In this document: one piece after another, positions 217 through 52,821 of the stretch
Position numbering within the stretch: the stretch's first letter is position 1
How the letters are laid out: every line of letters begins with the position of its first letter
Source: an uncultured virus (IMG/VR IMGVR_UViG_3300029258_002658)
Taxonomy: Duplodnaviria > Heunggongvirae > Uroviricota > Caudoviricetes
Strand: one strand, 5' to 3'
Length of the DNA stretch: 60,176 nt
IMG/VR virus record: IMGVR_UViG_3300029258_002658
Position numbers and translations under genes: made by a program
Notes under the pieces: model-generated
What the model was told of the DNA's origin: nothing
Database searches by the model: none
The model's input: only the letters and a program-made list of their open reading frames with translations

Positions 217-2532
217 ATGAAGATTTGGACCCACTACATCCCAGGGCGGCACGACCGCAGTACGGCAGCTGCGTTGGCTCGTGAGGTCACGGCGGTCAAG
301 AGCGCCCAGAAGCTGCCGGACTATCCTCATTTCTACGTCCGGGCGGTGGTGTCCGATGCGGGGGGTCCGGACGGGCGGTTCTTGGTGTGGGCCAAGTCGC
401 CTATGACCGACACACAGATCCGGGGGGCGTGGAAGAAGAGCAGTCCCGTGGTAGCTACGCGGACGAAGCTGGCTTCGGTGCCCGCGACGGTCAAAGGCAA
501 CAAGCCCAAGAAGAAGGCGAAGCCGAAGAATAGTGGGGGCTCCAAGCCCAAAGCTAAGCCCAAGCCCAAAACCAGAGCCAAAACCACCGGAGCAGCGAAG
601 CCGAAGACCGCGAAGGAGAAACTTGCGGACCTTTGGGCCGGAGCCGAATGTACCCTCGATGGGGTTCCGGCGAAGATCCAGGGGCGCAAGCAGGGCTTCG
701 CTCATGTCTCGCAGCTGGAGGATCCAGGGGAGTCGGTGGAGTTCTCTTGGGAAGCGGTCAATCGTGTGATGACCGAAGGTGACGAGGCTTTCTCCTCGGG
801 CAAGACGAAGCCGAAGGCTAAGGCTAAAGCCAGGAAGAAGAAGAAGTCCACTGCCAAGAAGACTGCCAGCGCAAAGCCCAGGACGAAGAAGAAGGCGAAG
901 GCGAAGAAGGCCTCGAAGGCTACAGGAACGGTTTCCACCAAGAAGGTGAAGCGCAAGAAGGGCAGACGGCCTGGAGCCACGAAGAAGGGCAAGAAGACGG
1001 TGTCCGGAGGGACGCTCGCCTCCCGCCTCAACTGGCTAGACCGAGCCGAGATCCAGGAAATCCTGGAGCGGTGGGGTTTCGCAGTCTACGACTCGGAGTC
1101 CACTGACGACCTCCGCGAAGCGTTGCAGGAGAACATCGAAGACGGGACCATCCCTGAGGAGGAGATCGATACGGTCAGCGGTCCCATGGGTAAGAAGAAG
1201 AAGGCGAAGTCGAAGAAGGCGAAGGGTAAGAAAACGGTAAGCGGAAAGTCTTTCAAAGAGGGGGATCGAGTAAGGGTGGTGAGTCCAGCGGCGATGATCC
1301 TGAGCGGGATCCCTGAAGGGGCGGAGGGCATCGTACGGGCCATCGCAGGTGCCAGAGGCCGGTCGATCTACCCAGACCCGGCTAAGCGACTCGTTTATGT
1401 GGAATGGGACCAGTACCCCGGCAAGGCTATTGGCCGTGATGAGGTCGAGAAGATCGACAATGGCTCGGTAGGCCGGAGGATACCTCGCGTTAGCGTCGAT
1501 GTATTCGAGGACGGGCAGCCTGTACGTGGATCCAGGGACTTCACCCAGGCCTTCGATACCGTGGGGGCACTGCCTCCTGGGGGATGGAACGAAGGCTGTG
1601 GATACGAGACGCTGGCCGGTTGGCTTCACGCCAGCAACGACCGGTACTATGAGGCGCGTCGGCACATCGCTGATCTCGCTATGGATCGCGCCGAGGAATT
1701 GGCTGCCATCCAATACCCTCTCTCCGCCAAGGCCTCAATCAAGAAGGCTTCGCTTGCTCGTCTCCAACCTTTCATCACCGAGGGCAAGCACCGCATGAAG
1801 CGGACAGGTGAGGACGGGAAAGCGGAAGGGGAATGGTACGCCGTCGTGCGGACCATCCAGCAGAACATCCTCAGCAGTGAGATCGTCAAAGCCGGAGGCC
1901 GTACACCTCAGGAAGCGGACGTGCGGTGCGCTGGTCTCGACTTGGAGGGCGTGTCCCAGGCTCCATGTCCGGCCTACACCCCAGCTACGGCTGCGGGTCC
2001 GGCAGTGATTGCGGAAGTGGATGTGGACGAAGCCTACTCCGTAGGGGATGAAGATGACGTGGTGTACTACTCCGTCGTCCTCGGACCGGATGGGTACTAC
2101 TTGAGCGCGATCATCGACTCTACTACTGGGGCGTTCGTGGACTCCCTCGTCTCGGACGATGGGCCTTATACAACCGAGGAGGATGCCATCGAAGCGGGCC
2201 TCGACCTCGCTTTGGGATGGCTCTCTAGCAACGAAATCTTCGACTACGAGATCGACGCTCGCGTCGTGCAGGCTCTGGGTGCTGAGACGGTGTCCGGGTA
2301 TCGGCGGAAGAAGGGTACGCGCCCGAGGGGCATTGCGAAACGCAAGGGAGCCACGGCGAAGCCCAAACCTCGTACCCGTAGAAGATCTGCCCCTGCGGCT
2401 GTCCACCCCACCTTGCCGTGGGACGAAGACGAGGATGATCCTTTCGAGGTGCCTACACCTCGCCGCCGCCCAACAACGGCGGGACCGAAGGAAGGAAGCA
2501 ACTTCCCTGGTCTTTTCGATGACTTCGAGTAG
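217..2532 (+). CDS. Lys-rich multidomain protein with repeated TVSG linkers
   Basis: 771 aa ORF with AGGAG RBS; Lys/Ala-rich basic tracts alternate with small globular segments (one SH3/KOW-like: FKEGDRVRVV); TVSG occurs four times, plus TAAGP and TTAGP. Confidence 0.8.
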   Translation: MKIWTHYIPGRHDRSTAAALAREVTAVKSAQKLPDYPHFYVRAVVSDAGGPDGRFLVWAKSPMTDTQIRGAWKKSSPVVATRTKLASVPATVKGNKPKKKAKPKNSGGSKPKAKPKPKTRAKTTGAAKPKTAKEKLADLWAGAECTLDGVPAKIQGRKQGFAHVSQLEDPGESVEFSWEAVNRVMTEGDEAFSSGKTKPKAKAKARKKKKSTAKKTASAKPRTKKKAKAKKASKATGTVSTKKVKRKKGRRPGATKKGKKTVSGGTLASRLNWLDRAEIQEILERWGFAVYDSESTDDLREALQENIEDGTIPEEEIDTVSGPMGKKKKAKSKKAKGKKTVSGKSFKEGDRVRVVSPAAMILSGIPEGAEGIVRAIAGARGRSIYPDPAKRLVYVEWDQYPGKAIGRDEVEKIDNGSVGRRIPRVSVDVFEDGQPVRGSRDFTQAFDTVGALPPGGWNEGCGYETLAGWLHASNDRYYEARRHIADLAMDRAEELAAIQYPLSAKASIKKASLARLQPFITEGKHRMKRTGEDGKAEGEWYAVVRTIQQNILSSEIVKAGGRTPQEADVRCAGLDLEGVSQAPCPAYTPATAAGPAVIAEVDVDEAYSVGDEDDVVYYSVVLGPDGYYLSAIIDSTTGAFVDSLVSDDGPYTTEEDAIEAGLDLALGWLSSNEIFDYEIDARVVQALGAETVSGYRRKKGTRPRGIAKRKGATAKPKPRTRRRSAPAAVHPTLPWDEDEDDPFEVPTPRRRPTTAGPKEGSNFPGLFDDFE

Positions 2533-2557
2533 CAGCTGCTGACAGGATTCCCCACAT

Positions 2558-2582
2558 CAAGGTCCGGGTCCTCCGGGCCTTG
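2558..2582 (+). terminator. Hairpin after ORF 217-2532
   Basis: CAAGGTCCGG-GTCCT-CCGGGCCTTG inverted repeat; no strong U tract. Confidence 0.4.
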
Positions 2583-10829: not shown

Positions 10830-10887
10830 TCCTCTTGTTGTGTACACCACAGTAAGGTTTAAGCCCCTTCGTCCTAGAGAGGCAGAT

Positions 10888-25115: not shown

Positions 25116-25151
25116 GAGCCCGTTTTCTAGCCCTGAACTAGGGAGGTAACC

Positions 25152-25583: not shown

Positions 25584-25620
25584 TTTCCTCATCTCCGAAC
25601 TGGCTTTAAGGAGACCTACC

Positions 25621-26553: not shown

Positions 26554-26555
26554 CC

Positions 26556-26978: not shown

Positions 26979-26988
26979 GAGCAGTAGC

Positions 26989-36800: not shown

Positions 36801-36900
36801 CCCCGACGACCGCCTTCAATTCCACCAGCTGCCCACGCGGATCGACGTAGGCTACCGGTGGCTTCTGGGGATCTGGGCGGGATTCGGTTTTCCTCGCCAT
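33844..36900 (-). CDS. Large multidomain protein with V(S/T/A)xGP-type linkers and a Zn ribbon
   Basis: AGGAGG RBS before MARKTE; CPKKGC...CPVC; three similar small C-terminal domains separated by VSGG, AVGM and TVSGP. Confidence 0.8.
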   Translation of the reverse strand: MARKTESRPDPQKPPVAYVDPRGQLVELKAVVGAFLKKMAEVQEKLYGAVQLDIAHGLGHDFRKKAEPQTGSVVAGLFVDCLVDIGWSRGKPVLPEEIADAGVYYLGFGPVFSHIRSAPTTDSAIQVQFHTSKGLIAPFNVRYDDAIITPAEVTRLNQAGQWLNKHLTKKYGNASPFQVRVQNAADALLQLGFTITPPKGFANIAEAIDGLAKQWDAEGDDKAPFAGSPESISGLLQNGWEGMRHTLKQLGFGTRKPRGDVGALPQKNRVYVVGMETENRKTGVVVGVHPGNLVSGNVLGRYQGLTVAPRPINAENPKEAAARYRALVGLTKNLPIEERLESPIKPPQRTASVPRQEPEDTEEEQEPLPSPSEPTAEPDTDSDDEGVPQITFTLPVPKDPEDPETSMPAISGSSIPNLEEVHPVWVLLAAMYPDYDSFRNPNLPSPGRHIYQAATTGNATLRGQGRPTQDYDLVVMEIDEIDWASDQFEEDVEATELLTKAALGAQKLLDIGVDHPHFEKRARRMVKAIPRRVMVPLALDEENTSLSGEVGDAIIQAYMDNGWEHILVLVPTGRGMGEVNNLRAFYEDLRREIYDDTYDDEESPEGKESEDSPWDYYLIEMLELGKPEIRAVANGLGISVEEMRQQSPEDIFRTQGDTFVPLLVRVSGQPEAEILRLFENPPAPTVAAGPSLVRMHGRRPIHNPQVTAGPEYDEQIEAPTCPKKGCGGGIHRGVRDSEDLWECPVCHWKWRTPLKERQVSGGEPAGPEGPEPTGDVYVQETEDGYEAAYGGHFAANSPEWDDLIDQLRVWVRNTPFPDGVPKIMYLDSDQSAYEINLSTGQLSSTPQAVGMSPPPLPDGMEEDGKIEIIETTSRERRFQALFTGGDLKEHIVGFAKTYDGILDVIDGWLEMNTSSIPVFLKGREIDIATGKPVKGDDTVSGPVAYSTEIGENDITVQAIDGLYVAYYQGAEILSVEGRRNLVRAIREWLEKKGLTDSRAWMVDPSLMKIRPLQVWPEG

Positions 36901-36963
36901 ATAACCTCCTGTTGCAACTGCGACTGACGATACCACGGAGCCTCCCCACCGAACAGGGAGGCC

Positions 36964-36993: not shown

Positions 36994-37320
36994 TTATTGG
37001 GGATTCGCGAGGTACTGTTGGTACAGTTGGACGATACGCTGGGCCGGGACACCACCAATCTCGGACCCGACCGGCTGCCCTTGCTTAATGAAGATGAGGG
37101 TAGGTGTGGCGGTGATGCGGTAGGTAGCCGAAATGGGCATCCCTGCGGGGTGCATCGTATCGCAGGCAAGGATCGCAATCTCAGGGTGATTCTCGGCCAC
37201 CCAGTCGATCTGGGACTTCATACCGACGCAGGCCCCGCACTGCTTGTTGTGGAAGTAGACAACCCCGGTCCAGTTGGAAGGTGGGTTGTATCCTGAGGTC
37301 GTGATTTCTTGGACTGGCAT
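36994..37320 (-). CDS. Thioredoxin
   Basis: CGAC active site; YRITATPTLIFIKQG cis-Pro region. Confidence 0.85.
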   Translation of the reverse strand: MPVQEITTSGYNPPSNWTGVVYFHNKQCGACVGMKSQIDWVAENHPEIAILACDTMHPAGMPISATYRITATPTLIFIKQGQPVGSEIGGVPAQRIVQLYQQYLANPQ

Positions 37321-37333: not shown

Positions 37334-39922
37334 CTATATGAAGTCGATGTGTTGTCCGTAGTGCCTCAACACAGAAGGGTCGAACTCTTCTTCCCCTCCA
37401 CCTGAGTCACCGAAGCCGACTAAGACCTTACCATCTGGCATGATCTGTTGCACGTCTCCCCATACTGTATGCCATGTACTGTCAGTATCGACAACCTGTA
37501 CCCTATCCCCAGGGAAGAACTGCTGCTCCAGGGGTAGCGATTGGCGGAAGGCTCTCTTTTCCTTCGGTGTCACCAATGACCTCTCTCGCTCTTCGATCTC
37601 GCGCATACCGTACCTGCCACGACGGAACTCTAAATCCGGATAGTCCATGTCTAGCCCGAAGAACCGCATCCCGTCTTTGTGTGCCCCTCCTGTGATCTCT
37701 ATCGTAGCGGCGTTGATTGACCGGAACGTACCGAGGAAAGATGGGCTGTAGGCTCCCCACTTTTTCCATACCTTGACAGCGGGGGAGTTGATGTCGGTGC
37801 GCGTGACCTCGTAGACGGTCCCACCCCAAGAACGGCTAACGTACTCTCCTGGCTTTGGGAGTTTCTCCAACCCCTTCGGCGTTCTCTTCTTCCGCTTCGT
37901 CTTCTTCTTCTTCTTGAGCGGGGATTCCTTTGGGGTGACCAGTCGTTTGATGCCGTAGATCTCCTTGGCTCGTTGAACAGCCTTCTTCACCAAGGTGAAC
38001 AGGCGTGGCATCAGCACCATGTTCTTGGTTACGGCGTAGGCGAACTGCACGTCGTGATCCACCCCCGGCAACTCCATGTGAGTCACCTCGTGAACGGCGA
38101 TGGCGCAGATCGTCAGGAGATCATCGTCCCTGTTTAGATGGTACCGGGGGATGATCTTGAAGGTGACGGGATCGTTGAACTCGTTCCGGCTCGTAGCTAC
38201 GGCGTAGGCCGGACTAATGAGGAGCCACTCCCCAGAGACATTCTCATCATGGAACTCCCAAGCCCGGTTCGTATAGAACGACCCTAGCGTTTCGCGTCCA
38301 CGTTCGTCCCAGTCGAAGGTGAACCCCACCCCAACCTTGTGGAGGTTGAGTCCGAGGGCAATGGCTACCCAGCGACAGGCCGCTGCCCATACATGGAGAA
38401 GGACACGCGGGTAGTTCCCCATGTTAGGGGACACCTCGTACTCAGGGGGTACGGGGATCGATTTCCGACCTTGCCGAATCAGGGTGTTTGGGGTCCAAAT
38501 CAGCCCGTTGGCTAAGGTGTTCTCGCCGTATCGCCCTGGCTTCACAGGGATGATTGAGAGGGCTTCTCTAGCCTCGGACTCCTCGACAGTAACATCGATG
38601 GCACGACTCTTATCGAGTGTCTGCTTTAGAGAGTCCGTGGCTCTGGCGACCTCCCTGAAAAGATCAGCAGCTTCTTGGGCTGTAAGTTGGTTTTCAGGCT
38701 CAACGACAGCGGGCGGGATATCCTTATCTTCCCGACCCTCCCCTCGAATGCGATCAAAGATCTGGTCGCCCAAGTCCCGGATGCGCGACTCTGCTTCCTC
38801 GAAGTTCGGGTCCTGGAAGGCATCTAGGTCTTCACCGTGGTAGATGGTGCTAGCGGGCACGGTAGAAGGACGGAGGGCGAACTCGCCTTCAACGGCAAGG
38901 TCTTTGATGAAATCGTTCAGCTTCGAACTGAAGGGGTAGCGGAACCCGTCCCGGTTGTCGGTGAAGAATGCCTTAGCGTTCCCGATGCACTCGATCAGGA
39001 CTTGACCGTCTACCCCGTCCGGTTGATACGGCCCAGGGAACATGTACAGGCCGTTCTGTCGTACCGGGATTTTGCGAGTATCCAGCACGTTCCCCCGGAC
39101 AACAGTGACCCGGACCTGAGCCCCGGTATCCGGATCGTCCCACTGGCGAACCACCTCTCCACCCGTAAGCCCTAACGTGAACGAGAGCCTCTCTTCGTTC
39201 ATGTAGAGGTTCACACCTGGGACGTGCGACATCCCTACGACGGTGTTGGCATAGGCTGTGGAGGTTCGTAGGGCCTCCTCTAGAGGCATCTTCACCCGGA
39301 GCATGGTGCCCGTAGCGCGGTCGTGACCGGGATGGGCTTGTTGTCTGCTCGCGATGGCTTCCTCGATGGACATACGCCCTGTACGTGGTGCGGTATGCCG
39401 AACGCCCTGACCCTGCACCCAAGTCCACTCCACCTCGTAATCATTGACTTGAACGACGGTCCGAATCTCATAGCTGAGCCATGGGAAGAGGATGATCTCC
39501 TTCGCCTTCCCGAACCCACCAGTGGCCCGTACTCCCTTCTTACCGGTGCCTGCTAACGCTAGGAAGTTGGCGAGCAACTGATCCTTCGTCATGCCTACTC
39601 CATCGTCTTCACACCCGACGACGAAGCCATCCTCTGCCCTTCGGAAGATGAGCCATACGTTTGCGGCCTTAGCATCGACCGAGTTCTGGAGAACCTCACG
39701 CCACCAAGCACTCTGCCAATCCTCGTAGGTGGCAAGCGGTGACTGGGCGAACTCCTCCGAGATCCCAATGGTTTGGGTCATGCTTGCGGGGTTCACCTCC
39801 AAGCCTGCCGGTGTCATAGGTAGGTTAGTTTCCCCTCCCAGAGGAGGTTGGCCTACTGTAGGGGCACCGCTAACAGGTCTTCGAGAGGACTCCCAATCGA
39901 TCTCTGGTCGGATGATACGCAT
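37334..39922 (-). CDS. GHKL (HATPase_c) ATPase fused to HExxH metallopeptidase-like and SH3-like domains
   Basis: REVLQNSVDA; EDDGVGM; GGFGKAK; AVHEVTH; FFPGDRVQVV. Confidence 0.8.
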   Translation of the reverse strand: MRIIRPEIDWESSRRPVSGAPTVGQPPLGGETNLPMTPAGLEVNPASMTQTIGISEEFAQSPLATYEDWQSAWWREVLQNSVDAKAANVWLIFRRAEDGFVVGCEDDGVGMTKDQLLANFLALAGTGKKGVRATGGFGKAKEIILFPWLSYEIRTVVQVNDYEVEWTWVQGQGVRHTAPRTGRMSIEEAIASRQQAHPGHDRATGTMLRVKMPLEEALRTSTAYANTVVGMSHVPGVNLYMNEERLSFTLGLTGGEVVRQWDDPDTGAQVRVTVVRGNVLDTRKIPVRQNGLYMFPGPYQPDGVDGQVLIECIGNAKAFFTDNRDGFRYPFSSKLNDFIKDLAVEGEFALRPSTVPASTIYHGEDLDAFQDPNFEEAESRIRDLGDQIFDRIRGEGREDKDIPPAVVEPENQLTAQEAADLFREVARATDSLKQTLDKSRAIDVTVEESEAREALSIIPVKPGRYGENTLANGLIWTPNTLIRQGRKSIPVPPEYEVSPNMGNYPRVLLHVWAAACRWVAIALGLNLHKVGVGFTFDWDERGRETLGSFYTNRAWEFHDENVSGEWLLISPAYAVATSRNEFNDPVTFKIIPRYHLNRDDDLLTICAIAVHEVTHMELPGVDHDVQFAYAVTKNMVLMPRLFTLVKKAVQRAKEIYGIKRLVTPKESPLKKKKKTKRKKRTPKGLEKLPKPGEYVSRSWGGTVYEVTRTDINSPAVKVWKKWGAYSPSFLGTFRSINAATIEITGGAHKDGMRFFGLDMDYPDLEFRRGRYGMREIEERERSLVTPKEKRAFRQSLPLEQQFFPGDRVQVVDTDSTWHTVWGDVQQIMPDGKVLVGFGDSGGGEEEFDPSVLRHYGQHIDFI

Positions 39923-43300: not shown

Positions 43301-43890
43301 AAGGATTTCCCAACACCTGCGGACCCCGCAATCACCATCTGGCGGCGGAAGAGGTTCGGGTACAACCGACTCCACTCCTCATCCTTCTGTGGGCGGTCGC
43401 GGTACGTGATCCCGGTTGCGACTCGGGCAGACGGGAAGGCCTGCTCGATGGCGTCTATGGCTCCCTGTTGTAACGGCGTGAACTCGAACTCAAAGGGGAT
43501 GGGTTCGTCTCGCTCCTGCGGCCCGAACTCGTCGTAGACTGAATTGGCCCATGCACGAACTGGCCCCCGTAGGAGGAGGGTGGGGACGAACGTAGAGCCG
43601 TCCGGCATTGTGAACTGGAGACCTCCGGGAACAGAGCGTACCTTCGCCGGGGATCCTGTAGCCGCGTACGCTAAACGCAGGAAGGCCAATAGTTCGTCGG
43701 TGAGTTGCCCCTGCTGAATAGCCTGCGTAGACCGTGCTGCAAGCATAGCCGCGTAGGGGTGCCGCTGCTCTTCCAGGCCTCGCACTATCGCCTGCATCCG
43801 GGTCTGGACATCCGGAGGGATAGCCTCTTCGCCCACGAAGGCGACCGAATTGCCATCGCGGGACCACCCTGTCTTAGGGATCGCAGTCAT
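40330..43890 (-). CDS. Dda/RecD-like SF1B helicase with C-terminal accessory domains
   Basis: AGSAGVGKSF; IDEASM; LVGDPGQLPPV; YGYCITGHASQGSQF; WMYVVVTRA; wHTH-like segment after a Pro-rich linker. Confidence 0.87.
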   Translation of the reverse strand: MTAIPKTGWSRDGNSVAFVGEEAIPPDVQTRMQAIVRGLEEQRHPYAAMLAARSTQAIQQGQLTDELLAFLRLAYAATGSPAKVRSVPGGLQFTMPDGSTFVPTLLLRGPVRAWANSVYDEFGPQERDEPIPFEFEFTPLQQGAIDAIEQAFPSARVATGITYRDRPQKDEEWSRLYPNLFRRQMVIAGSAGVGKSFTLGGLLIRLMEKHPTVRNVALTAYTHVAAKVMYWYFRRLLLFLAKERGLPVRSESIILKGQKRAKPAWGFDINGIPRIFTFPTTVMATWGSTITVESPEDEDEELEEAMEGGLPTSEDTSIDLGVIDEASMVPRTQMHDLMWGAGHPILLVGDPGQLPPVEEREIGVNDIFTEIVGAGFKEQIPGFGNLMAAQNLRTDSESASILDLAYDYRQHIKLPPGDNALDSIRLAKERVSRPGGGSIEVGIAERLLYYAAKRAEAGRGVTLTDELSAIREYAEYFQRNPEIASVITGKHSSRETLNAKIRVALGYQKSISSRTAPLDGTLHEGEQLVMESTRSFVPDPYTDPGKRITNNEILIVQEVSNGTVDIPVVYTEPEPPRRKGETPSDVGPTGLPPNTEIDYGYSIPCFQATVETRGKDNAETFFVNIPKEMLFHSPRNSKLRSYRKGIERLASQLKGRGVKYAWPTALITRWTGETVTPNRQPDGTFRRRIPEKSMTPRDKMHYVLATFATFIPTGSFSSRFQPRQDWMKDKVAWEQRAVREMLAYEQLSLLMAHYGYCITGHASQGSQFGVVYMLADPPQNHIIVENKVDPKFEQAVQETLRWMYVVVTRAKNELQLIQPTPMLATQSNLSFEDLSRLDLPLREVDTPAAPVVTPPPLPEPKREGAEEGEPEPVVPAPTPPIPTVDVEALKLTEKMTECLQAIAEGKPCAGARPGRTLNALERKGLIVKEGNGGTLTPRGREVAQVLFPSSTPPAPPVEKPKASKEVTSPSLEDLEAFLLDLARTAIRKGPVVLMDQGPAYVEFTRQQLEAVANRHNIPMLWLIDNNLTRKHELAGRLVQRLGIGLTYHLAGTWKVHIRDAGSKEVSYLGEGPARSVEPEPNGIRTYSASVVREQPRYASLGRKDARGREEGLFFTLTRETFEPVPEGFGGMYATSDLAPGTYYVFSLRHTRDKKPYGQQAVREGYFRTVAEREAEMDKIINALKSS

Positions 43891-45881: not shown

Positions 45882-45905
45882 AACTGAAAAACTTTTGCAG
45901 TTTTG
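45876..45905. repeat. AT-rich palindrome, copy 3
   Basis: CCCTGAAACTGAAAAACTTTTGCAGTTTTG overlapping the ParB-like stop codon. Confidence 0.85.
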
Positions 45906-45911
45906 ACAGCT

Positions 45912-48900
45912 ATGCGACCACCTGGATCCCGGCTCCGAGAAGAGGAAAGCTACGTGGCTCCTGATGTATGGGGCCACGTTGGTTCTGGGATCCTATTGGA
46001 GCGTGACGGGGAGGTATTCCTCGGCCTCCGCAGCGAAGAGGTGGCGCATCCTCTTACCTGGGGAGCCCCTGGCGGGCAGGTGCCCTTCGAACTACGCGAC
46101 AGGCTCGAAGACATCCACAAGAGCGCCGTCACCGAGTTCAAGGAGGAGGTTGGATCTCCTCCGCCAGGGAAGTACTCCGGAAGGTATGCTCGTCGTAGGA
46201 CTGAGGTGCATGACTTCTACCTCTTCCTCTACCACACCAAGTTGGACCCAGAGGTGAACCCCTACGCAGCCGGGGCTTGGGAGAACGAGGAGTTCGCGTG
46301 GTTCCCCGTGGATAACCTCCCAGAGGATGTGATTCCAGGGTTGCTTGAGGAGATCCAAGAGTTGCTTCCCCACACTATCGGATCGCCATCGGATACACCC
46401 TACGACTTGGCTGCGGACCCGCAATGGGACGATATTTTCTATGGTGAGCCGTCCGAAGCATCTGTCAAACGCCTTGCGACCTTCCTTCGCAAGAACCCTA
46501 ACCTGACACTTCGTCTTTACCACGGTACAGGGGCTTCGGCCCCTGTGATGGAACAAGGACTCAGGCCGACATCGAAGACGCGACGTAGGTCCCTACAAAG
46601 CCGTGCGGGCTACGTCTCCCTATCCGTCTACCCCGGAATGGCGGAGTCGTTCGGGAAGATGGGGTACCCCGGACAAGAAGTCGCAGTGTATGCGGTAGAC
46701 GTTCCAGTATCCTCCCTTAGCCCCGACGTAGATCAGCTACGTAACCAGCGGCAGTGGGCGGGACGAGATGTGAAGAATACCCTTGTGCAAAGTCTAGCCT
46801 ACGGCCACGGGGCTCAACATCGAGGTTCGATCCCTCCGGAGCAGATTCAACCTGTTTCCTCCACAACCCAAGGTCCCTCCGAAAAACTGCCGGGTGTTCT
46901 CCGGTCCCTCACCAAGGCATACGAGAAGTTCGAGTCCGTACAGGAGAGTGCGTGGCCTGCGTGTTGGAAGGTCTCCGAGGAGATCGTCGCGTGGCTCAGC
47001 AAGAAAGGACTGGCCCCTCTTGTTGTGCAAGGCTGGCTCGACGGGAACGAAGAACACTACCACTACTGGGTTACCGTTGAGATCAACGGGAGGGGCTGGA
47101 TCGTTGATGGTACGCGCAACCAGTTCGAGTTCCTCACCGGAGATGGTCGGCACCTTGCGATCATCCCTGAGGGAGGCCAGTACTGGGAGGAGTACCAGAC
47201 TGAGGTCGCAGGCGAGGTTGGAGGTAGGCGACACGACATCGCCGTCCTAACCCAAGCCCGTGAGATTGCCAACGGCATCGTGCGGTGGTTCAAGGACCAC
47301 GATTGGAAGGAACATCTGAAGCCGGTGCGTCTGGTACCAGGGCCTACGGGGATGGGTTACGCGGTCCAGGTCGCTCAGGGCGTACCGCCGGGGCATGTCC
47401 TTTTTCTGGTCTTGGCTAGAAAGGACGACCCCAAGATCCAGAGCGGGTACGGGACGATGGGTGGCAGTTCTATCATCGTCCTGAAAGTCTTAGACGAGCG
47501 TGAACTGGACAACCCCTACCTCGACTCGTGGATCGGTGGCGGAGGGCGCACCGCCTTGGAACACGAACTGATCCACTTCCTCGACAAGGTACGGGGTGTA
47601 GAAGCCCCTCCATCAGCGAGGTTCATTGACGATCTTCCCGTGACGACTCCGGGTGATGAACCGTGGTCCGAAGAGGAGGGGCGACGACGGTACTTCAACG
47701 ACCCGCAGGAGATGAACGCCTTCTACGGGGAGGTGGCGACCTCCATGGTCAACATGTGGAGGTCGAACCCGTTGATTCGGGAGAAGTTGAGCGATCCCAG
47801 AGAGTTCCGACGTGCCTTCGTGAGCCTCCTATCAGATGAGTTCTGGGAGTCCCTGACGCCGAAGAACCGCCAGCGGATTGAGAAGCGGATATACCAGCTG
47901 CTTACCAACCTGAAGGAAACACCTGTGGAACCAGCGACCACCAGCGGCCCTCAGTGGAAGGCCTTCAACGAACACAATGTCCGTAAGATCGCGGAGTACG
48001 TTCGGAACGGTTGCAGGAAGCGCATGGAGCCGCTGGGGAACTGTAGCTACTACACTAGGGCACTCGTAGACGAACTGCGAAAGGCCGGATTCCCCGCGAA
48101 GCACGTACTCGGCATCGTACGTCTTGACGGCAGCTACACCGACCACTGGGGTGGCAACATCGACTGGGCGAAGGACAACGACAACTGGATCTACCACCAG
48201 TTCGCCATGGTCGGGGATTGGGTTATCGACATCGCCGCTGACCAGATCAACGCCTTGATCGAGGCTCCGATGGAGCGCATCCCACCGGTCTTCATCCGGC
48301 GGTTCTCCGCCTTGGACGACAACCTACCAGGGCGCAACTACCCGAGGTACCAAGGTGAGGTAGACGGGAAGCCCAAAGTGATCGGGGGGCCTCCGGTTAA
48401 GGGCAAGAAGACCCCATCTGTAGGTGACCGGGTTCGCGCTCAAGGGGTGTCGTCCAGCGACCTTGGGGAGTGGCTCGGCGCACCACCCGTCGAAGGGATT
48501 TGGTTGGGGGACAACCGGATCTACAAGAACCGGAAGGTTTACCCAGTCCAAGCATCCACCGTGGTTCTCGTGAAGAAAGGGACGACGAGGGACCGTGCCC
48601 GAGCCAAGGAAGTCCAAGAACGACTCCAAGCGAAACGAGAAGCGTCGGTACAACAACGCAAGGACGAAGAGAAGCAGAACGCTGAGCGGATGCGTCAGGT
48701 ACTGGCTATCCTCACCAACAGCGGCCTGAAACAGAAGGGGGATGCCTTCGAGGTTCGAGGCAAAGCCGCTGTGCAAGAGAAGGGCCGCGTGGCGCTCGAC
48801 GCGCTGATGGCGAAGGGCTACAAACTCACCCGCTACGGCGGTCTGGCGATGAAGGGCTGGCCTACCCTATACGTCCACCGAGAGGAGGCTGCGGATGGCT

Positions 48901-49910
48901 ACCCAAAGCTGCTGCGGTTCACGTTCGCGGGACACGTAGTAGGAGGGGCGGGTACTTCTACTAAGGGTATCGTGGTGGATACCCGTTCGGGGTGGAAGGG
49001 TACGGTGGAGGAACTCGAACTGGTTTTCCTGGAGTACCCTGAGGTCCACATGGTCACGGTAATTGCCTATCCTCCAGGACTCACAGCCGCACAGAAGGAA
49101 AAGCATAGCGGTCTCGCACTAGCGGACTTCACTATCCGAGGTGGTCGTGCGGCAGCTGATCGCTCCGACATCGTCGTCTTCGATGAACACAACCGACGTA
49201 AGGGTGTGATGCGTCGTATCTACGACGAGTTCGAGAGACGGTACGGAGTATCCGTGGATCCCTATAGCGATCCTACAGAAGAGGGCCATGCGTTCCAGAA
49301 GAGCCGTCGCACTGGAACGCCTCCGGTCAAAGGCTTCGCTCCCGACCCTCAGTTAGTGGAAACGCTGAACTACGCCCAGCTGTACCACGGCTCTACCCCC
49401 GAAGATGGGGACTGGCCTGAAGGGCTGGAGTCGTTCGGCGGGCTCTACGTGACCAGCCTCGAATGGCTAGCTAGTACCTACGCCTCGAACATCGGAGGGA
49501 AGGGAGATCTTCACACCATCACCCTCAAACCGGGCGTCCAGTTGGCTCTTGACGAGGATGAGTTTGGCTGGGGCGACATGGTCCGCACTTGGATGTCCAG
49601 CCCAGCGGTAGGTCACTACGGGAAGTTCGTCCTCAGCGACTCCCTACGCACGGCTCTTCGAGCAGCTGGGGCCTTGGGTCAGATCAAGGAGGAGATCCAG
49701 TCCCTCCATCAACAAGTTCAGGGGGGCAGCATCGGACGCCGGGGCGAGGAGTGGCCGCTGTCACGTCTGCGTCCCTACGTTGCAGATTGGGCGACGAGGT
49801 ACACTGGGCCTGCCCTTCACGGCTGGGTAAAAACAGGAGGGGCGTCACGTACCTTGCCCAAGTTGCGAATCCTGAACCAGCAGTTCTCAGCAGAACCACC
49901 GCTGTCCTGA
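45912..49910 (+). CDS. Polyvalent protein: NUDIX, ART-like, transglutaminase-like, zincin, transglutaminase-like, GNAT, ART-like
   Basis: WGAPGG...AVTEFKEEVG; LYHGT...YVSLS; C...HYW...IVD; HELIH...YFNDPQE; GNC...HQF...VID; RRKGVMRRIY; LYHGS...GLYVT. ATG at 45912, exact start uncertain. Confidence 0.85.
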   Translation: MRPPGSRLREEESYVAPDVWGHVGSGILLERDGEVFLGLRSEEVAHPLTWGAPGGQVPFELRDRLEDIHKSAVTEFKEEVGSPPPGKYSGRYARRRTEVHDFYLFLYHTKLDPEVNPYAAGAWENEEFAWFPVDNLPEDVIPGLLEEIQELLPHTIGSPSDTPYDLAADPQWDDIFYGEPSEASVKRLATFLRKNPNLTLRLYHGTGASAPVMEQGLRPTSKTRRRSLQSRAGYVSLSVYPGMAESFGKMGYPGQEVAVYAVDVPVSSLSPDVDQLRNQRQWAGRDVKNTLVQSLAYGHGAQHRGSIPPEQIQPVSSTTQGPSEKLPGVLRSLTKAYEKFESVQESAWPACWKVSEEIVAWLSKKGLAPLVVQGWLDGNEEHYHYWVTVEINGRGWIVDGTRNQFEFLTGDGRHLAIIPEGGQYWEEYQTEVAGEVGGRRHDIAVLTQAREIANGIVRWFKDHDWKEHLKPVRLVPGPTGMGYAVQVAQGVPPGHVLFLVLARKDDPKIQSGYGTMGGSSIIVLKVLDERELDNPYLDSWIGGGGRTALEHELIHFLDKVRGVEAPPSARFIDDLPVTTPGDEPWSEEEGRRRYFNDPQEMNAFYGEVATSMVNMWRSNPLIREKLSDPREFRRAFVSLLSDEFWESLTPKNRQRIEKRIYQLLTNLKETPVEPATTSGPQWKAFNEHNVRKIAEYVRNGCRKRMEPLGNCSYYTRALVDELRKAGFPAKHVLGIVRLDGSYTDHWGGNIDWAKDNDNWIYHQFAMVGDWVIDIAADQINALIEAPMERIPPVFIRRFSALDDNLPGRNYPRYQGEVDGKPKVIGGPPVKGKKTPSVGDRVRAQGVSSSDLGEWLGAPPVEGIWLGDNRIYKNRKVYPVQASTVVLVKKGTTRDRARAKEVQERLQAKREASVQQRKDEEKQNAERMRQVLAILTNSGLKQKGDAFEVRGKAAVQEKGRVALDALMAKGYKLTRYGGLAMKGWPTLYVHREEAADGYPKLLRFTFAGHVVGGAGTSTKGIVVDTRSGWKGTVEELELVFLEYPEVHMVTVIAYPPGLTAAQKEKHSGLALADFTIRGGRAAADRSDIVVFDEHNRRKGVMRRIYDEFERRYGVSVDPYSDPTEEGHAFQKSRRTGTPPVKGFAPDPQLVETLNYAQLYHGSTPEDGDWPEGLESFGGLYVTSLEWLASTYASNIGGKGDLHTITLKPGVQLALDEDEFGWGDMVRTWMSSPAVGHYGKFVLSDSLRTALRAAGALGQIKEEIQSLHQQVQGGSIGRRGEEWPLSRLRPYVADWATRYTGPALHGWVKTGGASRTLPKLRILNQQFSAEPPLS

Positions 49911-49932: not shown

Positions 49933-52821
49933 ATGGCCGATACCCCGAACTACGTTGCCGATCCGACCCTCTGGGAGAGGGCGAAGCGCAAGGTCTACGG
50001 CAAGAGCCGGTCAGTGGACATCTACGCCAACACAAAGATCGCAGACGAGTATGAGCGGTTAGGTGGGCGTTACCGGGGTAGCAAACCCGGTAAGGGTAGA
50101 GGCATCGAGAAGTGGTTCGCTGAACGTTGGGTGAATCTGAAGGATCGCAAGGGAGGTAGCTTCGGACCTTGTGGCCGGAAGACCGCAAAGCCCGAGGACT
50201 ACGCGACGTACCTAGATTTCATCGACACCTATCCCAAGTGCGTCCCGTTAGACAAGGCCTTGGCGATGACGGAGGCCGAGCGCGAGTTCGCTATCCTGAA
50301 CAAGGACGTGGCGCTCCTCCGAGTGAAGTGGCTACCTGGAGATCCTCCTGCGTCGGCATCGACGACACCGCCCAAGGGAAGCGATATCAAGGCCGAAGTC
50401 AGGCGGCTGCGAGAAGAAAGGAAACGTCTGGTGGCTAAGGTGAAGCGTGAAGGTGTGGCATGGCCTCCTCCCAGAACCGCATCCGGGCCATCTACCCCAG
50501 AGCCTCAGCGGATCGACTGGGAAACCTACATGCGGAGTCGCCTACCGGATCCCGGTCTCGAACACGGGGCACTCCGGGCTACTGCCCAGATGTCTCGCCG
50601 TGCCCTTCGTCAGCACCAAGCACGGCAGCGTGAACAGTTCAACGTGTTCTTCCGGGACTACGACAAGGTCCGTGCGGAGTACCTCCAGAAGATCGAGGCG
50701 CGTAAGATCATCGATCCTTCGGGGTCGCATTACCCTTCAGACGAAACCCTCGATGAGAGGATTGCCCGTCTCGAACGCATGATCGAGCAGATGGAGAACG
50801 CTGCGGACTTTTACGAAGGGGAAGGTCTGCACGACAAGGCCAGAGCCAACCGGAACGTTGCGGCCCGACGCCGGAAGGCCGTTGAGAGATGGAAGCGAGA
50901 GCGCGAGTCACAGACACCTGCTGCGAAGGAGGGTGGTATACGTCGGGCGAAGGGAAAGCGACCGAAGGGCCGACCGCGTAGCACCTACGGAACCGTGGGC
51001 TTCCCGAAAGAGGTGATCGAGATCAAGATCCCCGAACGGGACTTCCTCTCAATGGACCCTCGGTCCCGTGAATACCAAGAGAACAAGGCCGCGCAGAAGC
51101 GAGACCTTGTAGACCTTGCTCAGGCCCTGAAGAACTCAGCCTGGACGCCCGGTGCAGAACGGCCCTCCGGGGTCGAGGTGACAACCGGAAAGAAATCACG
51201 CAGTTGGATCATCGCCCCGCTATCGACGGGCGAAGAGGGCTTCCGGGTTGGACGGTGGGATCCTATGGGTCCTTCGGGGCACTCGGACTACAAAGCCCCT
51301 GGCTATGGCCGTGACCAAGATCCAGCGGACAGCGAATCCGTATGGCGGAAGATCGCCCTGGAGGAGTTGTTCTACAGCGGGGAGTACGGTCACGAGGTTG
51401 ATAGCGAAGCCGACGTGATGATCTTCCGGTTCCTTACTCCAAAGCGGAGCCTCGTGGATTGGTGGATCCAGCAACCGCTGGGGCAGTGGGGGATGCAGGT
51501 CGTCCAGGCTCGTGGTGAAGGCAATCGCCTACGCTTCGAGGGTAAGTACGAAGAGGCTGCGGAGTACGAGAAGCAGCACATGCCTCCCGGCCCCGTCCCC
51601 GATCCAACCCCGATCCCCGATACTATCGGGGGAGCGAAGGTAACCCAACGTCGCCCAGGTGATGGAGGGCATCCGGTGTTGTCCTACACCCTCACCTTCG
51701 CAGCTGAGCCTTACGCCAAGCAACGAGGCGTGTCTAAGGTCGCCCGCTCTCCGCGAGGTTTCATGCGAGCCTTCGAGGAGGCTGGCTCTTGGGAGAACCT
51801 CTCCGAGTGGTGGAAGAACCGCCGCAACAACTTCGTAGCGCGGCACATGGCCCAGGTAGAGAAGCGGGACGAGGCCCTCTGGACGAAGAAGGGCGAACCC
51901 TCCCGGCGTCACCTCGCCCTGGCAATGTGGGCTTTCACCCCGGACCCGAAGCGGTTCAAGAAGTGGCTAGACGAAAAACTAGAGGAGCGGGGGAGGTTGC
52001 TCGGTGGGACCGGCATCGATTGGATCGAAGGGTGGAAGGCGGTCTATGACACTGGTGAGTCATTGCAAGATCCGTCTTTCTACTACCCGCTTACTCCAGG
52101 GGCTCGTGTAGATGCTCCTACGGAAGATGGACTGTGGTTTACGACCAAGTTCACCGTGGCTTTGGAGTACGCCTACCAGCACGGTAGTAAGACGTTGCTC
52201 AAGGTGCGAACTGCACGGCGGGCTGCTACACCGGATCCTGATACTAGGGGATCGTACCGAACCGATTTCTTGGAGGTCGTGCAGGTAATGGATGTAGGGC
52301 GAACCACTGGAGGCCCTTCCTCGAACTTGAAGGCTCTCGGAACCACGGTGATAGACGAAGGTGGTGTCCACTTCGAGACCGGTGTACCGATACGCTTCCG
52401 CTTCATCCACAACACCGACTCGTCACCTTTCTTCGGCACGGAGTTCCAACAGCACCTCGAACCCGGCGGCTTCTACCTGCTCCACGATGAGACTGGCACA
52501 GGCCCGTTCGTCCCTGGGTGGCAAGGCGGAACAGCTGAGGTCCAGAGCCCGATTGTTTTGTGGCACAACACCGAGCAAACCATCGGGTACGACGAGCATT
52601 CCTGGAAGGCGCGACTCTTCGACAAGTTCGGATCAGGAAGTCGTGAACCCCGAGGTCAGAAGGCCGCTCGACGCCAGAACGAGAAGCTACGGCAGGCGAT
52701 CCTCGCAGCGGGGTACGATGCCGTGGTTACCGTGCGGCGGAGCGACGAACCCAGTACGTTGGAGATCGTCCTCTTGGATCCAGAGAACCAGATCGTAGAG
52801 GTGGGCGATCCCGTAAAATAG
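49933..52821 (+). CDS. Polyvalent protein with DUF5872-like N-terminus and ART-like C-terminus
   Basis: GGRY...KWFAERW...PCGRK...YPKCVP; GVSKVARS...RRHLAL.MWA domain; GLWFT segment; GYDAVV...EIVLL. Confidence 0.75.
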   Translation: MADTPNYVADPTLWERAKRKVYGKSRSVDIYANTKIADEYERLGGRYRGSKPGKGRGIEKWFAERWVNLKDRKGGSFGPCGRKTAKPEDYATYLDFIDTYPKCVPLDKALAMTEAEREFAILNKDVALLRVKWLPGDPPASASTTPPKGSDIKAEVRRLREERKRLVAKVKREGVAWPPPRTASGPSTPEPQRIDWETYMRSRLPDPGLEHGALRATAQMSRRALRQHQARQREQFNVFFRDYDKVRAEYLQKIEARKIIDPSGSHYPSDETLDERIARLERMIEQMENAADFYEGEGLHDKARANRNVAARRRKAVERWKRERESQTPAAKEGGIRRAKGKRPKGRPRSTYGTVGFPKEVIEIKIPERDFLSMDPRSREYQENKAAQKRDLVDLAQALKNSAWTPGAERPSGVEVTTGKKSRSWIIAPLSTGEEGFRVGRWDPMGPSGHSDYKAPGYGRDQDPADSESVWRKIALEELFYSGEYGHEVDSEADVMIFRFLTPKRSLVDWWIQQPLGQWGMQVVQARGEGNRLRFEGKYEEAAEYEKQHMPPGPVPDPTPIPDTIGGAKVTQRRPGDGGHPVLSYTLTFAAEPYAKQRGVSKVARSPRGFMRAFEEAGSWENLSEWWKNRRNNFVARHMAQVEKRDEALWTKKGEPSRRHLALAMWAFTPDPKRFKKWLDEKLEERGRLLGGTGIDWIEGWKAVYDTGESLQDPSFYYPLTPGARVDAPTEDGLWFTTKFTVALEYAYQHGSKTLLKVRTARRAATPDPDTRGSYRTDFLEVVQVMDVGRTTGGPSSNLKALGTTVIDEGGVHFETGVPIRFRFIHNTDSSPFFGTEFQQHLEPGGFYLLHDETGTGPFVPGWQGGTAEVQSPIVLWHNTEQTIGYDEHSWKARLFDKFGSGSREPRGQKAARRQNEKLRQAILAAGYDAVVTVRRSDEPSTLEIVLLDPENQIVEVGDPVK

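What the first reader, a model, noticed from the sequence alone, without database searches (positions are those of the whole stretch)
217..52821. A shared glycine motif marks domain junctions in five large proteins: possible protease-processed polyprotein cargo system
Seen: five large, otherwise unrelated ORFs carry a short motif, roughly (T/V)-(V/T/I/A)-(S/A/G/Q)-G-(P/G), at apparent domain boundaries. ORF217 has TVSG four times (about nt 997, 1171, 1234, 2287) plus TAAGP and TTAGP. ORF36900(-) has TVAAGP, VTAGP, QVSGG and TVSGP. ORF39922(-) starts with PVSGAPTVG. ORF45912 reads NUDIX|TIGSP|ART|TTQGP|TGase|VAGEVGG|zincin|TTSGP|TGase|VIGGP|...|VVGGA|GNAT. ORF49933 has TASGP, TVGFP, TIGGA, LLGGT and TTGGP. 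Codons differ between copies, so conservation is at the peptide level, and I did not notice the motif recurring in the polymerase, UDG or primase. Established: viral maturation cysteine proteases cut at short Gly motifs (adenovirus (M/L/I)xGG|x, poxvirus AG|x, ASFV GG|x). Inference: these proteins are packaged or exported as polyproteins and cut into single effector domains, or the motif is a packaging/sorting tag. No protease is demonstrated.
Basis: partly seen in the sequence, partly recalled or inferred. Interest (0 to 1): 0.9.

Follow-up and report, generated by a model that had tools for sequence, protein, structure and literature searches.

The report
Glycine junction motif in phage polyproteins
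Four or five giant multi-enzyme proteins of an uncultured phage-like element of about 122 kb carry the same short glycine-ending peptide at the seams between their modules; it is most likely a cut-here signal for a phage protease, but no cutting has been shown.

Summary
The strict pattern [TV][VTIA][SAGQ]G[PG] hits 12 times in four of the five ORFs (4,960 aa in the five; about 0.5 expected) and 0 times in the other 13,970 aa of the window. That statistic alone does not survive a look-elsewhere control: free pattern searches on shuffled linkers score as high.

Independent evidence supports it:
- A 97%-identical relative of ORF49933 carries two extra modules. New TVSG, TTSG and TTAG sites lie within 6 aa of 3 of the 4 indel edges.
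- Termini of stand-alone homologues of the NUDIX, ADP-ribosyltransferase (ART)-fold and zincin domains of ORF45903 fall on the motif sites.
- Thirty-five other large homologous proteins (69,026 aa) have only 3 hits.

ORF45903 and ORF49933 are "polyvalent proteins" in the sense of Iyer et al. 2017. Candidate proteases sit inside ORF45903: two paralogous papain/transglutaminase-like Cys-His-Asp modules and an HExxHxxD zincin.

Cleavage after the Gly is the best reading (about 0.5) but is unproven. Virion packaging is unsupported, because the genes lie among replication genes and the rest of the genome could not be reached. ORF37334's instance, VVGGA and TIGSP are doubtful. I class this as a new variant of a known kind.

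The parts
217..2532 (+). ORF217, 771 aa. Small modules and Lys/Ala/Pro-rich basic tracts separated by six sites: TVSG|G (nt 997-1011), TVSG|P (1171-1185), TVSG|K (1234-1248), TAAG|P (1987-2001), TVSG|Y (2287-2301) and TTAG|P (2473-2487).
   Evidence: No Pfam, PHROG or NCBIfam family. A 58-aa module (aa 265-322) and a 21-aa Lys-rich peptide (aa 323-343) are each bracketed by TVSG. In variant P0161, TVSGK reads TGGGK.
33844..36936 (-). ORF33844, 1030 aa (probable start M13 at nt 36900). Sites: VAAG|P (nt 34831-34845), VTAG|P (34771-34785), QVSG|G (34615-34629) and TVSG|P (34075-34089). A 52-aa Cys4 zinc-ribbon-like module (nt 34618-34773) is bracketed by two of the sites.
   Evidence: In the L003/P0171 variant (39 differences) none of the 20 site residues changes, although aa 698-800 carry 10 changes. 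The first ~700 aa, including a long acidic linker, carry no site.
37334..39922 (-). ORF37334, 862 aa. It has a GHKL-type ATPase (aa 76-130, nt 39533-39697), an HEVTH zincin-like motif (aa 611-615, nt 38078-38092), a Lys-rich linker and C-terminal SH3/KOW-like parts. Its only motif-like peptide is PVSG|A at aa 16-20 (nt 39863-39877).
   Evidence: Pfam HATPase_c_3 27.6 bits. There is no strict-pattern hit. T22M varies, and 3 of 6 cluster variants start at M36. Membership in the motif set is doubtful.
45903..49910 (+). ORF45903, 1335 aa polyvalent protein. Order: NUDIX (nt 45987-46328) - TIGSP (46374-46388) - ART-fold domain (46389-46862) - TTQG|P (46863-46877) - papain/TGase-like module 1 (46875-47201) - EVAG|EVGG|R (47202-47225) - HExxHxxD zincin (47226-47936) - TTSG|P (47937-47951) - papain/TGase-like module 2 (47952-48377) - VIGG|P (48378-48392) - unassigned modules, with VVGG|A (48936-48950, doubtful).
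   Evidence: Pfam NUDIX and Transglut_core. The ART fold rests on an AlphaFold model with pLDDT 94 and Foldseek matches to KptA/Tpt1, pertussis and cholera toxin A and Arr at prob 1.00, E 2e-4 to 1e-2, TM only 0.36-0.43. Zincin invariants are H113, E114, H117 and D120. Homologue termini fall at 159-160, 158-165, 319-325 (mode 320), 435-436 and 673-682. Modules 1 and 2 are paralogues with tails ending VGG/VIGG. A GNAT domain was not confirmed.
49933..52821 (+). ORF49933, 962 aa polyvalent protein. DUF5872 lies at the N-terminus. Sites: TASG|P (nt 50476-50490), STYG|T (50980-50994), TIGG|A (51622-51636), LLGG|T (51997-52011) and TTGG|P (52303-52317).
   Evidence: Relative P0003 (1307 aa, 97% identical in shared columns) has module insertions exactly at STYG|T and LLGG|T, flanked by TVSG, TTSG, TTAG and AVSG. 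One inserted module is Pfam ART-PolyVal at 41.5 bits against a cut-off of 31.2.

Best explanation
ORF45903 and ORF49933 are phage-type polyvalent proteins. ORF217 and ORF33844 are built on the same plan: strings of unrelated modules. Most of their seams carry a lineage-specific peptide: beta-branched or small residue, then beta-branched or small, then small (S/A/G/Q), then Gly, often followed by Pro. I read this as the unprimed-side (P4-P1) recognition sequence of a phage-encoded endopeptidase that cuts after the Gly. Cutting would release single enzymes (NUDIX, ART, zincin, papain-like modules), small zinc-ribbon and other modules, and Lys-rich peptides.

The likeliest enzymes are the two paralogous Cys-His-Asp papain/transglutaminase-like modules of ORF45903. 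Each starts right after TT[QS]G|P and ends in V-x-G-G. The HExxHxxD zincin of ORF45903 and an unseen protease elsewhere in the genome are alternatives.

Shown: the motif, its position at module borders, its restriction to this lineage, and the presence of peptidase-like modules with intact catalytic residues. Inferred: that it is cut, by which enzyme, at which bond, and when.
For: 1. Enrichment. There are 12 strict hits in the five ORFs against 0.5-0.6 expected, and 0 in the other 13,970 aa. Thirty-five other large homologues (69,026 aa) have 3 hits, and the tight form T[VTA][SAGQ]GP scores 8 against 0.

2. Junction position from data not used to define the motif.
- P0003 equals ORF49933 plus two inserted modules. 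The 349 inserted aa hold 3 new core hits against 0.23 expected, each within 6 aa of an indel edge. That covers 3 of 4 edges (P about 3e-6, or about 2e-4 if the two duplicated linkers of insert 1 count as one event).
- Termini of stand-alone homologues coincide with the sites at 4 of 4 borders in ORF45903.
- A 5-aa insertion in 2 variants lies directly after TTSGP.
- The AlphaFold model of the ART-fold domain is confident up to about 3 residues before TTQG and disordered in it.

3. Codons differ between copies, so the constraint is on the peptide.

4. Gly is the only invariant residue, and VAAGP and VIGGP lack Ser/Thr.

5. Peptidase-like modules sit in cis. The literature predicts autoprocessing of polyvalent proteins by embedded peptidases (PMC5512222, section 8 read).

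6. Pro follows the core in 11 of 19 cases in the five ORFs and in 0 of 12 elsewhere.
Against: - No cleavage product, neo-terminus or protease activity is known.
- After correcting for the freedom to choose a pattern, the within-window statistic is not significant. Two of four main hold-out tests are null.
- Pro at P1' is disfavoured by most cysteine proteases (general knowledge). The four P0003 sites have V, T, Q and L instead.
- At least 90%-identical variants show no special conservation. About 5 of 108 site residues change, against 3.6% overall. One site is abolished (VVGGA to VVDTV) and one altered (TVSG to TGGG).
- Many seams lack the motif: the first 700 aa of ORF33844, the Lys-rich linker of ORF37334, and ORF45903 after aa 1016.
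- The papain-like modules could be effectors (deamidase/transglutaminase) rather than proteases. The Atlas leads are Tox-PL-2 and Tox-PLDMTX, with scores of 0.88-0.90.
- The fold model of module 2 is poor (pLDDT 54.6) and has no significant structural match.
- The two linkers flanking insert 1 in P0003 are duplicates of each other, so part of the junction signal could be shared ancestry.
Confidence: 0.5

Rival explanations
1. The motif is an uncleaved junction element. It could be a hinge or cap that insulates neighbouring folds, or a short docking peptide read by a non-proteolytic partner such as a packaging adaptor, chaperone or portal. The proteins would then act as intact multi-enzyme chains.
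For: - According to Iyer et al., N4 virion RNA polymerase, ArdC and TraC1 are delivered as full-length polyvalent proteins (PMC5512222 section 8).
- Gly-Pro is a common turn and linker element, and Pro after the Gly argues against ordinary cysteine-protease cleavage.
- All strong sites lie in low-hydrophobicity linkers.
Against: - A purely structural linker need not keep one peptide across unrelated modules with different codons.
- It would also not be expected to be absent from the linkers of 35 homologous polyvalent proteins and of the window's own multidomain helicases and polymerase.
- A 21-aa Lys-rich peptide and a 52-aa zinc ribbon bracketed on both sides look like units meant to be released.
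Confidence: 0.25
2. There is no function. The pattern would be a by-product of Thr/Ser/Gly/Pro-rich linker composition, of linker segments duplicated and moved together with modules by recombination, and of post-hoc pattern choice.
For: - Free pattern searches on shuffled linkers reach the same score, and some hold-out tests are null.
- The linker G[IL]RRAKGKRP...T[VT]SG is duplicated on both sides of insert 1 in P0003.
- ORF45903 modules 1 and 2, with their V-x-G-G tails, are paralogues.
- Two sites vary among close variants.
Against: - Linker-restricted shuffles give 0.48 expected against 12 observed.
- BLAST finds no similarity between the modules or linkers of the different proteins, apart from one low-complexity basic tract, and codons differ.
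- Outside controls total 99,117 aa, with 6 strict and 0 tight hits.
Confidence: 0.15
3. The motif is a modification or recoding signal instead. It could be a Ser/Thr glycosylation or phosphorylation sequon, a Gln/Lys cross-linking site for the transglutaminase-like modules, or a 2A-like Gly-Pro peptide-bond skip.
For: - Thr and Ser are frequent at positions 1-3.
- Transglutaminase-like modules and Lys-rich tracts are present.
- The Gly-Pro pair recalls the picornavirus 2A NPG|P (recalled).
Against: - No hydroxyl residue is invariant: VAAGP and VIGGP have none. Gln occurs in few sites.
- Eight of 19 core sites and all four P0003 sites lack Pro. The Asn-Pro of 2A is absent, and 2A skipping is not known on bacterial ribosomes (general knowledge).
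Confidence: 0.07

Closest known systems
Polyvalent proteins of phages and conjugative elements (Iyer, Burroughs, Anand, de Souza, Aravind 2017, PMC5512222; abstract, term passages and section 8 read)
   Same: - One polypeptide holds several unrelated enzymes.
- Pfam ART-PolyVal is present in relative P0003.
- The ART-fold domain recurs in 3,000-4,100-aa proteins that carry ART-PolyVal, LPD23, LPD38, RadC and SNF2.
- The zincin has HExxH plus an Asp three residues downstream, as the paper describes for phage-type members.
- The paper predicts autoprocessing.
   Different: - The paper gives no processing-site motif: 'linker' occurs 0 times and 'cleavage' 3 times.
- Here a shared junction peptide links several proteins of one genome.
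- Papain/transglutaminase-like modules are not among the paper's four peptidase superfamilies (section 8).
- The genes lie among replication genes.
Head-maturation proteolysis of packaged and ejected proteins in T4 and in giant phages of the phiKZ/SPN3US type (PMC5694885, PMC7411985, PMC10052503: search listing and abstract starts only; the T4 L/I-x-E and phiKZ S/A/G-x-E motifs are recalled)
   Same: One short motif shared by many proteins of a phage directs cutting by one phage protease, including proteins delivered into the host.
   Different: The known motifs end in Glu, whereas this one ends in Gly. Here no prohead protease, capsid gene or virion evidence is available.
Gly-specific cysteine proteases of large eukaryotic DNA viruses: adenain (M/L/I)xGG|x, ASFV pS273R GG|x on polyproteins pp220/pp62, poxvirus I7 AG|x
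   Same: The sites have a small residue then Gly at P2-P1. Several substrates share them, including basic DNA-condensing core peptides. The TVSG-bracketed Lys-rich peptide of ORF217 recalls adenovirus Mu/pVII.
   Different: Those are clan-CE proteases of eukaryotic viruses, and no such domain was found here. Position 4 is Thr/Val here, not Met/Leu/Ile.
Papain-like leader proteases of positive-strand RNA viruses that cut at their own C-terminus between Gly-Gly or Gly-Ala (for example potyvirus HC-Pro YxVG|G), and C39 double-glycine peptidases (recalled)
   Same: A papain-fold module is followed by a tail ending V-x-G-G. The ORF45903 tails are YQTEVAGEVGG and YQGEVDGKPKVIGG.
   Different: There is no sequence relationship. 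The fold of the modules rests only on a Pfam Transglut_core hit and a low-confidence model. A PCAT1 C39 domain appears only among insignificant Foldseek rows.

Membership tests
Polyvalent proteins (Iyer et al. 2017) | Two or more domains of disparate biochemical activity in one polypeptide | tested here: met
   ORF45903 has NUDIX (Pfam), an ART fold, Transglut_core and an HExxHxxD zincin. P0003 has DUF5872 plus ART-PolyVal.
Polyvalent proteins (Iyer et al. 2017) | Signature domains of the class (ART-PolyVal, LPD domains, MPTase), or homology to proteins that carry them | tested here: met
   ART-PolyVal scores 41.5 bits against a cut-off of 31.2 in P0003. Homologues P0007, P0009, P0010, P0028 and P0035 carry ART-PolyVal, LPD23, LPD38, RadC or SNF2. 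ORF217, ORF33844 and ORF37334 have no such domain.
Polyvalent proteins (Iyer et al. 2017) | Encoded by a phage, plasmid or conjugative element | tested here: inconclusive
   The window has PolA, a family-4 UDG, a DnaG-type primase, two Dda/RecD-like helicases and 4 tRNAs, and weak PHROG hits. The longest contig is 122,176 bp. No capsid, portal, terminase or relaxase is seen in the 60 kb.
Polyvalent proteins (Iyer et al. 2017) | Delivered into the host together with the DNA | not testable with these tools
   This needs virion proteomics. The gene context is a replication cluster.
Protease-processed viral polyprotein | A recurrent short motif located at domain borders | tested here: met
   The caveat applies.
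Protease-processed viral polyprotein | A cognate protease encoded by the element | tested here: inconclusive
   Candidates only: two Cys-His-Asp modules and one zincin in ORF45903, and HEVTH in ORF37334. No stand-alone protease is present in the window. The rest of the genome could not be reached.
Protease-processed viral polyprotein | Demonstrated cleavage products | not testable with these tools
   No proteomic data are available.
Adenain/pS273R/I7-type (clan CE) maturation system | A clan-CE cysteine protease gene | tested here: not met
   No such family appears among the 59 window ORFs in Pfam, PHROGs or NCBIfam. Only the window was searched.

The most novel reading that the evidence does not exclude
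This phage lineage has turned its polyvalent proteins into true self-processing polyproteins. They would be read by an embedded papain-like protease through a private Thr/Val-x-small-Gly junction code. New effector modules could then be plugged in with their linker, as seen between ORF49933 and P0003, and be released automatically. Lys-rich DNA-binding peptides would be cut out of ORF217 much as adenovirus cuts its core peptides. Unchecked notes from this scan report other junction 'dialects' in other phages. Together with them, this would make polyprotein processing with lineage-specific site codes a general strategy of bacterial viruses.
Probability: 0.35. Interest if true: 0.75.

Novelty: new variant of a known kind. 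Interest (0 to 1): 0.6.

Why it matters
Polyvalent proteins are widespread in phages and conjugative elements. In 2017 they were predicted to be cut into separate effectors, but no processing site has been defined. Four literature searches and the source paper gave none.

A short, recognisable junction peptide in a genome that also encodes candidate proteases in the same chains makes the question directly testable. One recombinant protein with point mutants at the Gly and at the catalytic Cys or His would decide it. If the sites are real, they also give exact module borders for many domains of unknown function. They would also show how new anti-host modules are added as cassettes.

Tried and rejected
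- Whole genome. No G000 is held. The metagenome loci have no searchable record. The capsid type and a maturation protease outside the window could therefore not be sought.
- Viral contigs. There is no relative of the PolA.
- ORF45903, near lengths. Only its own cluster was found.
- Module 2 (aa 683-829), shorter lengths. No homologue was found.
- Profile searches of PDB sequences. The ART-fold alignment gave 0 hits and the zincin alignment gave only 2 chance-level hits.
- Pfam on 23 motif-delimited segments at E <= 1. This added only weak leads: Tox-PLDMTX at 0.049 for module 1, IBR at 0.028 for the zinc ribbon, and no GNAT. Pfam on the first inserted module of P0003 gave nothing significant.
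- AlphaFold on module 2 without an alignment. pLDDT was 54.6. Cys sits at a helix N-terminus and His and Asp on strands, which fits a papain-like topology but is unreliable. Foldseek gave no match at E <= 0.001; arylamine N-acyltransferase, SseI and a C39 domain appear only among insignificant rows.
- ESM Atlas. It gave leads only, with scores of 0.88-0.93.
- BLOSUM word-neighbour counting. It was dominated by Trp words and was abandoned.
- DNA-level repeat or recombination site. Rejected because the codons differ.
- Ser/Thr modification sequon. Rejected as the main reading because no hydroxyl residue is invariant.
- Motif near protein termini. The thioredoxin has TTSG at aa 7 and the HD protein has TATGP at aa 417 of 424. 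These are too few, and the pattern too loose, to interpret.
- Complex prediction. Not run, because an enzyme-substrate pair is outside what it tests well.
Full report
What the window is

The window is 60,176 bases at about 59% G+C with dense coding on both strands. Recognisable genes are replication-type:
- family-A DNA polymerase, 29754-32627(-)
- family-4 uracil-DNA glycosylase, 28972-29766(-)
- DnaG-type primase, 14391-15239(+)
- two Dda/RecD-like helicases, 10840-14391(+) and 40330-43890(-)
- HD phosphohydrolase, thioredoxin and a radical-SAM protein
- four tRNA genes

No capsid, portal, terminase, tail or stand-alone protease family was detected in any of the 59 ORFs I called. The nearest phage polymerases are 28-34% identical over 9-24% of the protein.

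The same DNA occurs on metagenome contigs of 110,006, 47,994 and 35,572 bp. The collection's longest contig with ORF49933 is 122,176 bp, so the element is about 122 kb or more. No whole genome is held and the contigs could not be searched.

Is the motif there, and is it more than chance?

All quoted peptides are present at the quoted places, and codons differ between copies.
- The strict pattern [TV][VTIA][SAGQ]G[PG] gives 12 hits in the five ORFs (4,960 aa): 4, 3, 0, 3 and 2 in ORF217, ORF33844, ORF37334, ORF45903 and ORF49933.
- Per-protein shuffles give 0.63, and 0 of 300 reach 12. Shuffles confined to low-hydrophobicity linker residues give 0.48, and 0 of 1000 reach 12.
- The other 54 ORFs (13,970 aa) have 0 hits against 2.4 expected.
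- The tight form T[VTA][SAGQ]GP gives 8 hits against 0.07-0.09 expected.

Against this stands the look-elsewhere problem, because the pattern was chosen after looking. I wrote a pattern optimiser and ran it on real and shuffled linker words.
- It does find the motif family de novo. [MQT]VSG[GPY], T[TVY]SG[GPSY] and T[TVY][AGQS]GP rank 2, 3 and 7, with scores of 10.6, 10.5 and 9.6.
- The best pattern in 50 shuffled proteomes scores 9.65 on average (sd 0.94, max 12.9). With freer classes, shuffles reach 15.5 ± 2.0, the same as the motif-like pattern.
- Within-window enrichment is therefore not proof.
- Hold-out tests are mixed. The pattern defined by ORF217 alone finds 3 sites elsewhere against 0.22 expected (P = 1.4e-3). 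The one defined by ORF33844 finds 5 against 0.49 (P = 1.6e-4). Those defined by ORF45903 or ORF49933 find 0 and 1.

Independent evidence that it marks junctions

(a) The relative P0003. A search with ORF49933 found P0003, a 1307-aa protein from another contig.
- It is 97% identical in shared columns but has two module-sized insertions, at P0003 residues 348-503 and 848-1038.
- One inserted module is Pfam ART-PolyVal. The other has Cys, His and Asp in papain-like order but matches no family.
Each lies within 6 residues of an indel edge.
- That covers 3 of 4 edges (P about 3e-6). The fourth edge has AVSG 16 residues upstream.
- The linkers on the two sides of insert 1 (G[IL]RRAKGKRP...T[VT]SG) are duplicates. 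Counted as one event, the probability is about 2e-4.

(b) Homologue termini in ORF45903. A full HMMER search with residues 1-1200 gave 535 hits at E <= 1e-3, of which the best 150 were listed. I re-aligned the 149 listed proteins other than the query's own cluster. Termini of stand-alone homologues project onto ORF45903 as follows:

| Domain border | Projected position (aa) | Nearest site (aa) |
|---|---|---|
| NUDIX C-terminus | 159-160 | TIGSP 158-162 |
| ART-fold N-terminus | mostly 158-165 | TIGSP 158-162 |
| ART-fold C-terminus | 319-325, mode 320 | TTQGP 321-325 |
| Zincin N-terminus | 435-436 | EVAGEVGG 434-441 |
| Zincin C-terminus | 673-682 | TTSGP 679-683 |

(c) Structure. An AlphaFold model of residues 161-324 with 39 aligned sequences has pLDDT 94. 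It drops below 50 in the last three residues, which lie inside TTQG.

(d) Variants. Two variants carry a 5-aa insertion directly after TTSGP.

(e) Outside controls. Thirty-five other homologues of 700 aa or more (69,026 aa) have 3 strict and 0 tight hits. All 149 homologues (99,117 aa) have 6 and 0. The motif is therefore lineage-specific and not a generic linker property.

(f) Context of the core. In the five ORFs, 16 of 19 core hits lie in linkers and 11 of 19 are followed by Pro. Elsewhere in the window the figures are 3 of 12 and 0 of 12.

Limits of the observation

- ORF37334 has no strict hit. Its PVSGAPTVG lies in an N-terminal stretch that varies (T22M) and that 3 of 6 cluster variants lack because they start at M36.
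- VVGGA reads VVDTV in a variant, and TVSGK reads TGGGK.
- TIGSP aligns with a G-x-P-[ST]-x-P-[YFH]-D-F lead-in that other GC-rich lineages have before the same domain. Examples are STGGP|TDPYDF and GTGGP|DRPFDF. It may therefore belong to the domain.
- Several seams have no motif: the first ~700 aa of ORF33844 with its acidic linker, the Lys-rich linker of ORF37334, and ORF45903 beyond aa 1016.
- Among variants at least 90% identical, the sites are not measurably more conserved than the rest. About 5 of 108 site residues change, against 177 of 4,931 overall. In the L003 variant of ORF33844, 0 of 20 site residues change next to 10 changes in aa 698-800. The power of this comparison is low.

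What the proteins are

ORF45903 has these modules:
- NUDIX (Pfam).
- An ADP-ribosyltransferase-fold domain. The Foldseek matches are KptA/Tpt1, pertussis and cholera toxin A subunits, Arr and TreX, all at probability 1.00 but with TM only 0.36-0.43. No Pfam family covers it.
- Two paralogous Cys-His-Asp modules. The second reaches Pfam Transglut_core at 25.7 bits against a cut-off of 23. Paralogy, shared starts after TT[QS]G|P and shared tails YQxEVxG...V(I)GG come.
- A zincin whose four aligned sequences (ORF45903 and three stand-alone homologues) keep H, E, H and an Asp three residues further on. This is the form Iyer et al. describe for phage-type polyvalent proteins (section 8 read).
- The GNAT label could not be confirmed.

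Giant homologues of the ART-fold domain carry ART-PolyVal, LPD23, LPD38, RadC, SNF2, NUDIX and GNAT. ORF45903 and ORF49933 (with P0003) are therefore polyvalent proteins in the published sense. ORF217 (Lys/Ala/Pro-rich tracts between small modules) and ORF33844 (a zinc ribbon bracketed by two sites) share only the architecture and the motif. BLAST finds no similarity between modules of different proteins.

Most likely mechanism

Peptide-level conservation across unrelated modules, an invariant Gly with small residues before it, variable residues after it, and the bracketing of very small units all fit a protease site read on its unprimed side and cut after Gly. The small units are a 21-aa Lys-rich peptide, a 52-aa zinc ribbon and a 58-aa module. 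Candidate enzymes are in the chains themselves. I put this at about 0.5.

The bond cut, the enzyme and the timing are inferences. Pro after the Gly is unusual for cysteine proteases. It could instead point to the zincin, or to cleavage at another bond of the motif.

Packaging into virions is not supported by anything in the window. ORF33844 and ORF37334 lie in one minus-strand block with the polymerase, UDG, thioredoxin and a helicase.

Rivals and literature

The rivals are:
- an uncleaved hinge or docking motif (0.25)
- composition, duplicated linkers and post-hoc choice (0.15)
- a modification or recoding signal (0.07)

The source paper predicts processing, mainly by zincins, but names no site. 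Four searches found no report of a junction motif in polyvalent proteins. The giant-phage papers on prohead-protease motifs were seen only as listings and abstract starts. The jumbo-phage review was read only in passages around the search terms.

Earlier unchecked notes of this scan describe other junction peptides in other phages' polyvalent proteins, including LSSG and (R/Y/F)AxGG. I did not test them and do not count them as evidence. They suggest the theme is recurrent.

Verdict

The polyprotein reading is plausible and now has named candidate proteases. Cargo packaging remains open. This is a new variant of a known kind, with interest 0.6.

Noticed in passing
window 52879-52951, 53757-53847, 56790-56862, 59384-59458 (all minus strand): Four tRNA genes (Arg-TCT, Ser-TGA, Arg-CCG, Leu-CAA) lie between plus-strand ORFs downstream of the polyvalent genes.
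   Followed up: no
window 19771-23880 (+): A 1369-aa ORF has a lipoprotein-type signal (LLATTG|C), long Ser/Thr/Asp-rich repeat-like regions and a Gly-rich C-terminal tail of about 300 aa. No family matched in Pfam, PHROGs or NCBIfam. It is followed by three ORFs with hydrophobic segments and coiled-coil hits (24036-28035).
   Followed up: no
window 36994-37320 (-) with 29754-32627 (-): A phage-encoded thioredoxin (Pfam 34.9 bits) lies in the same strand block as the family-A polymerase. This recalls the T7 polymerase-thioredoxin processivity pair (recalled). It carries TTSG at residues 7-10.
   Followed up: no
window 217-2532 (+), aa 95-135, 195-260, 324-339, 695-725: Histone-H1-like Lys/Ala/Pro tracts (AKPK occurs 5 times) suggest DNA binding. 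Length changes between variants fall inside these tracts.
   Followed up: partly
proteins P0035, P0039-P0043, P0051, P0075, P0083 (homologues of ORF45903 aa 163-320): In GC-rich relatives the ART-fold domain is preceded by G-x-P-[ST]-x-P-[YFH]-D-F, for example STGGP|TDPYDF and PTAAGT|ADDPFD. This may be a conserved domain lead-in or a looser junction signal in other lineages.
   Followed up: partly
window versus L001 (contig of 110,006 bp): The coordinate offset puts window base 1 at about contig base 62,778, so the window would run about 13 kb past that contig's end. This is consistent with a circular or circularly permuted genome of about 122 kb.
   Followed up: no
window 55177-55959 (+) and 56139-56789 (+): A radical-SAM protein has only far-below-cut-off similarity to MoaA and viperin-type models (28-38 bits). 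A DUF6939 protein lies just below the Pfam cut-off (26.4 against 27).
   Followed up: no
window 14388-14394: The primase start ATG overlaps the stop of the upstream 1183-aa helicase (ATGA), which suggests translational coupling.
   Followed up: no
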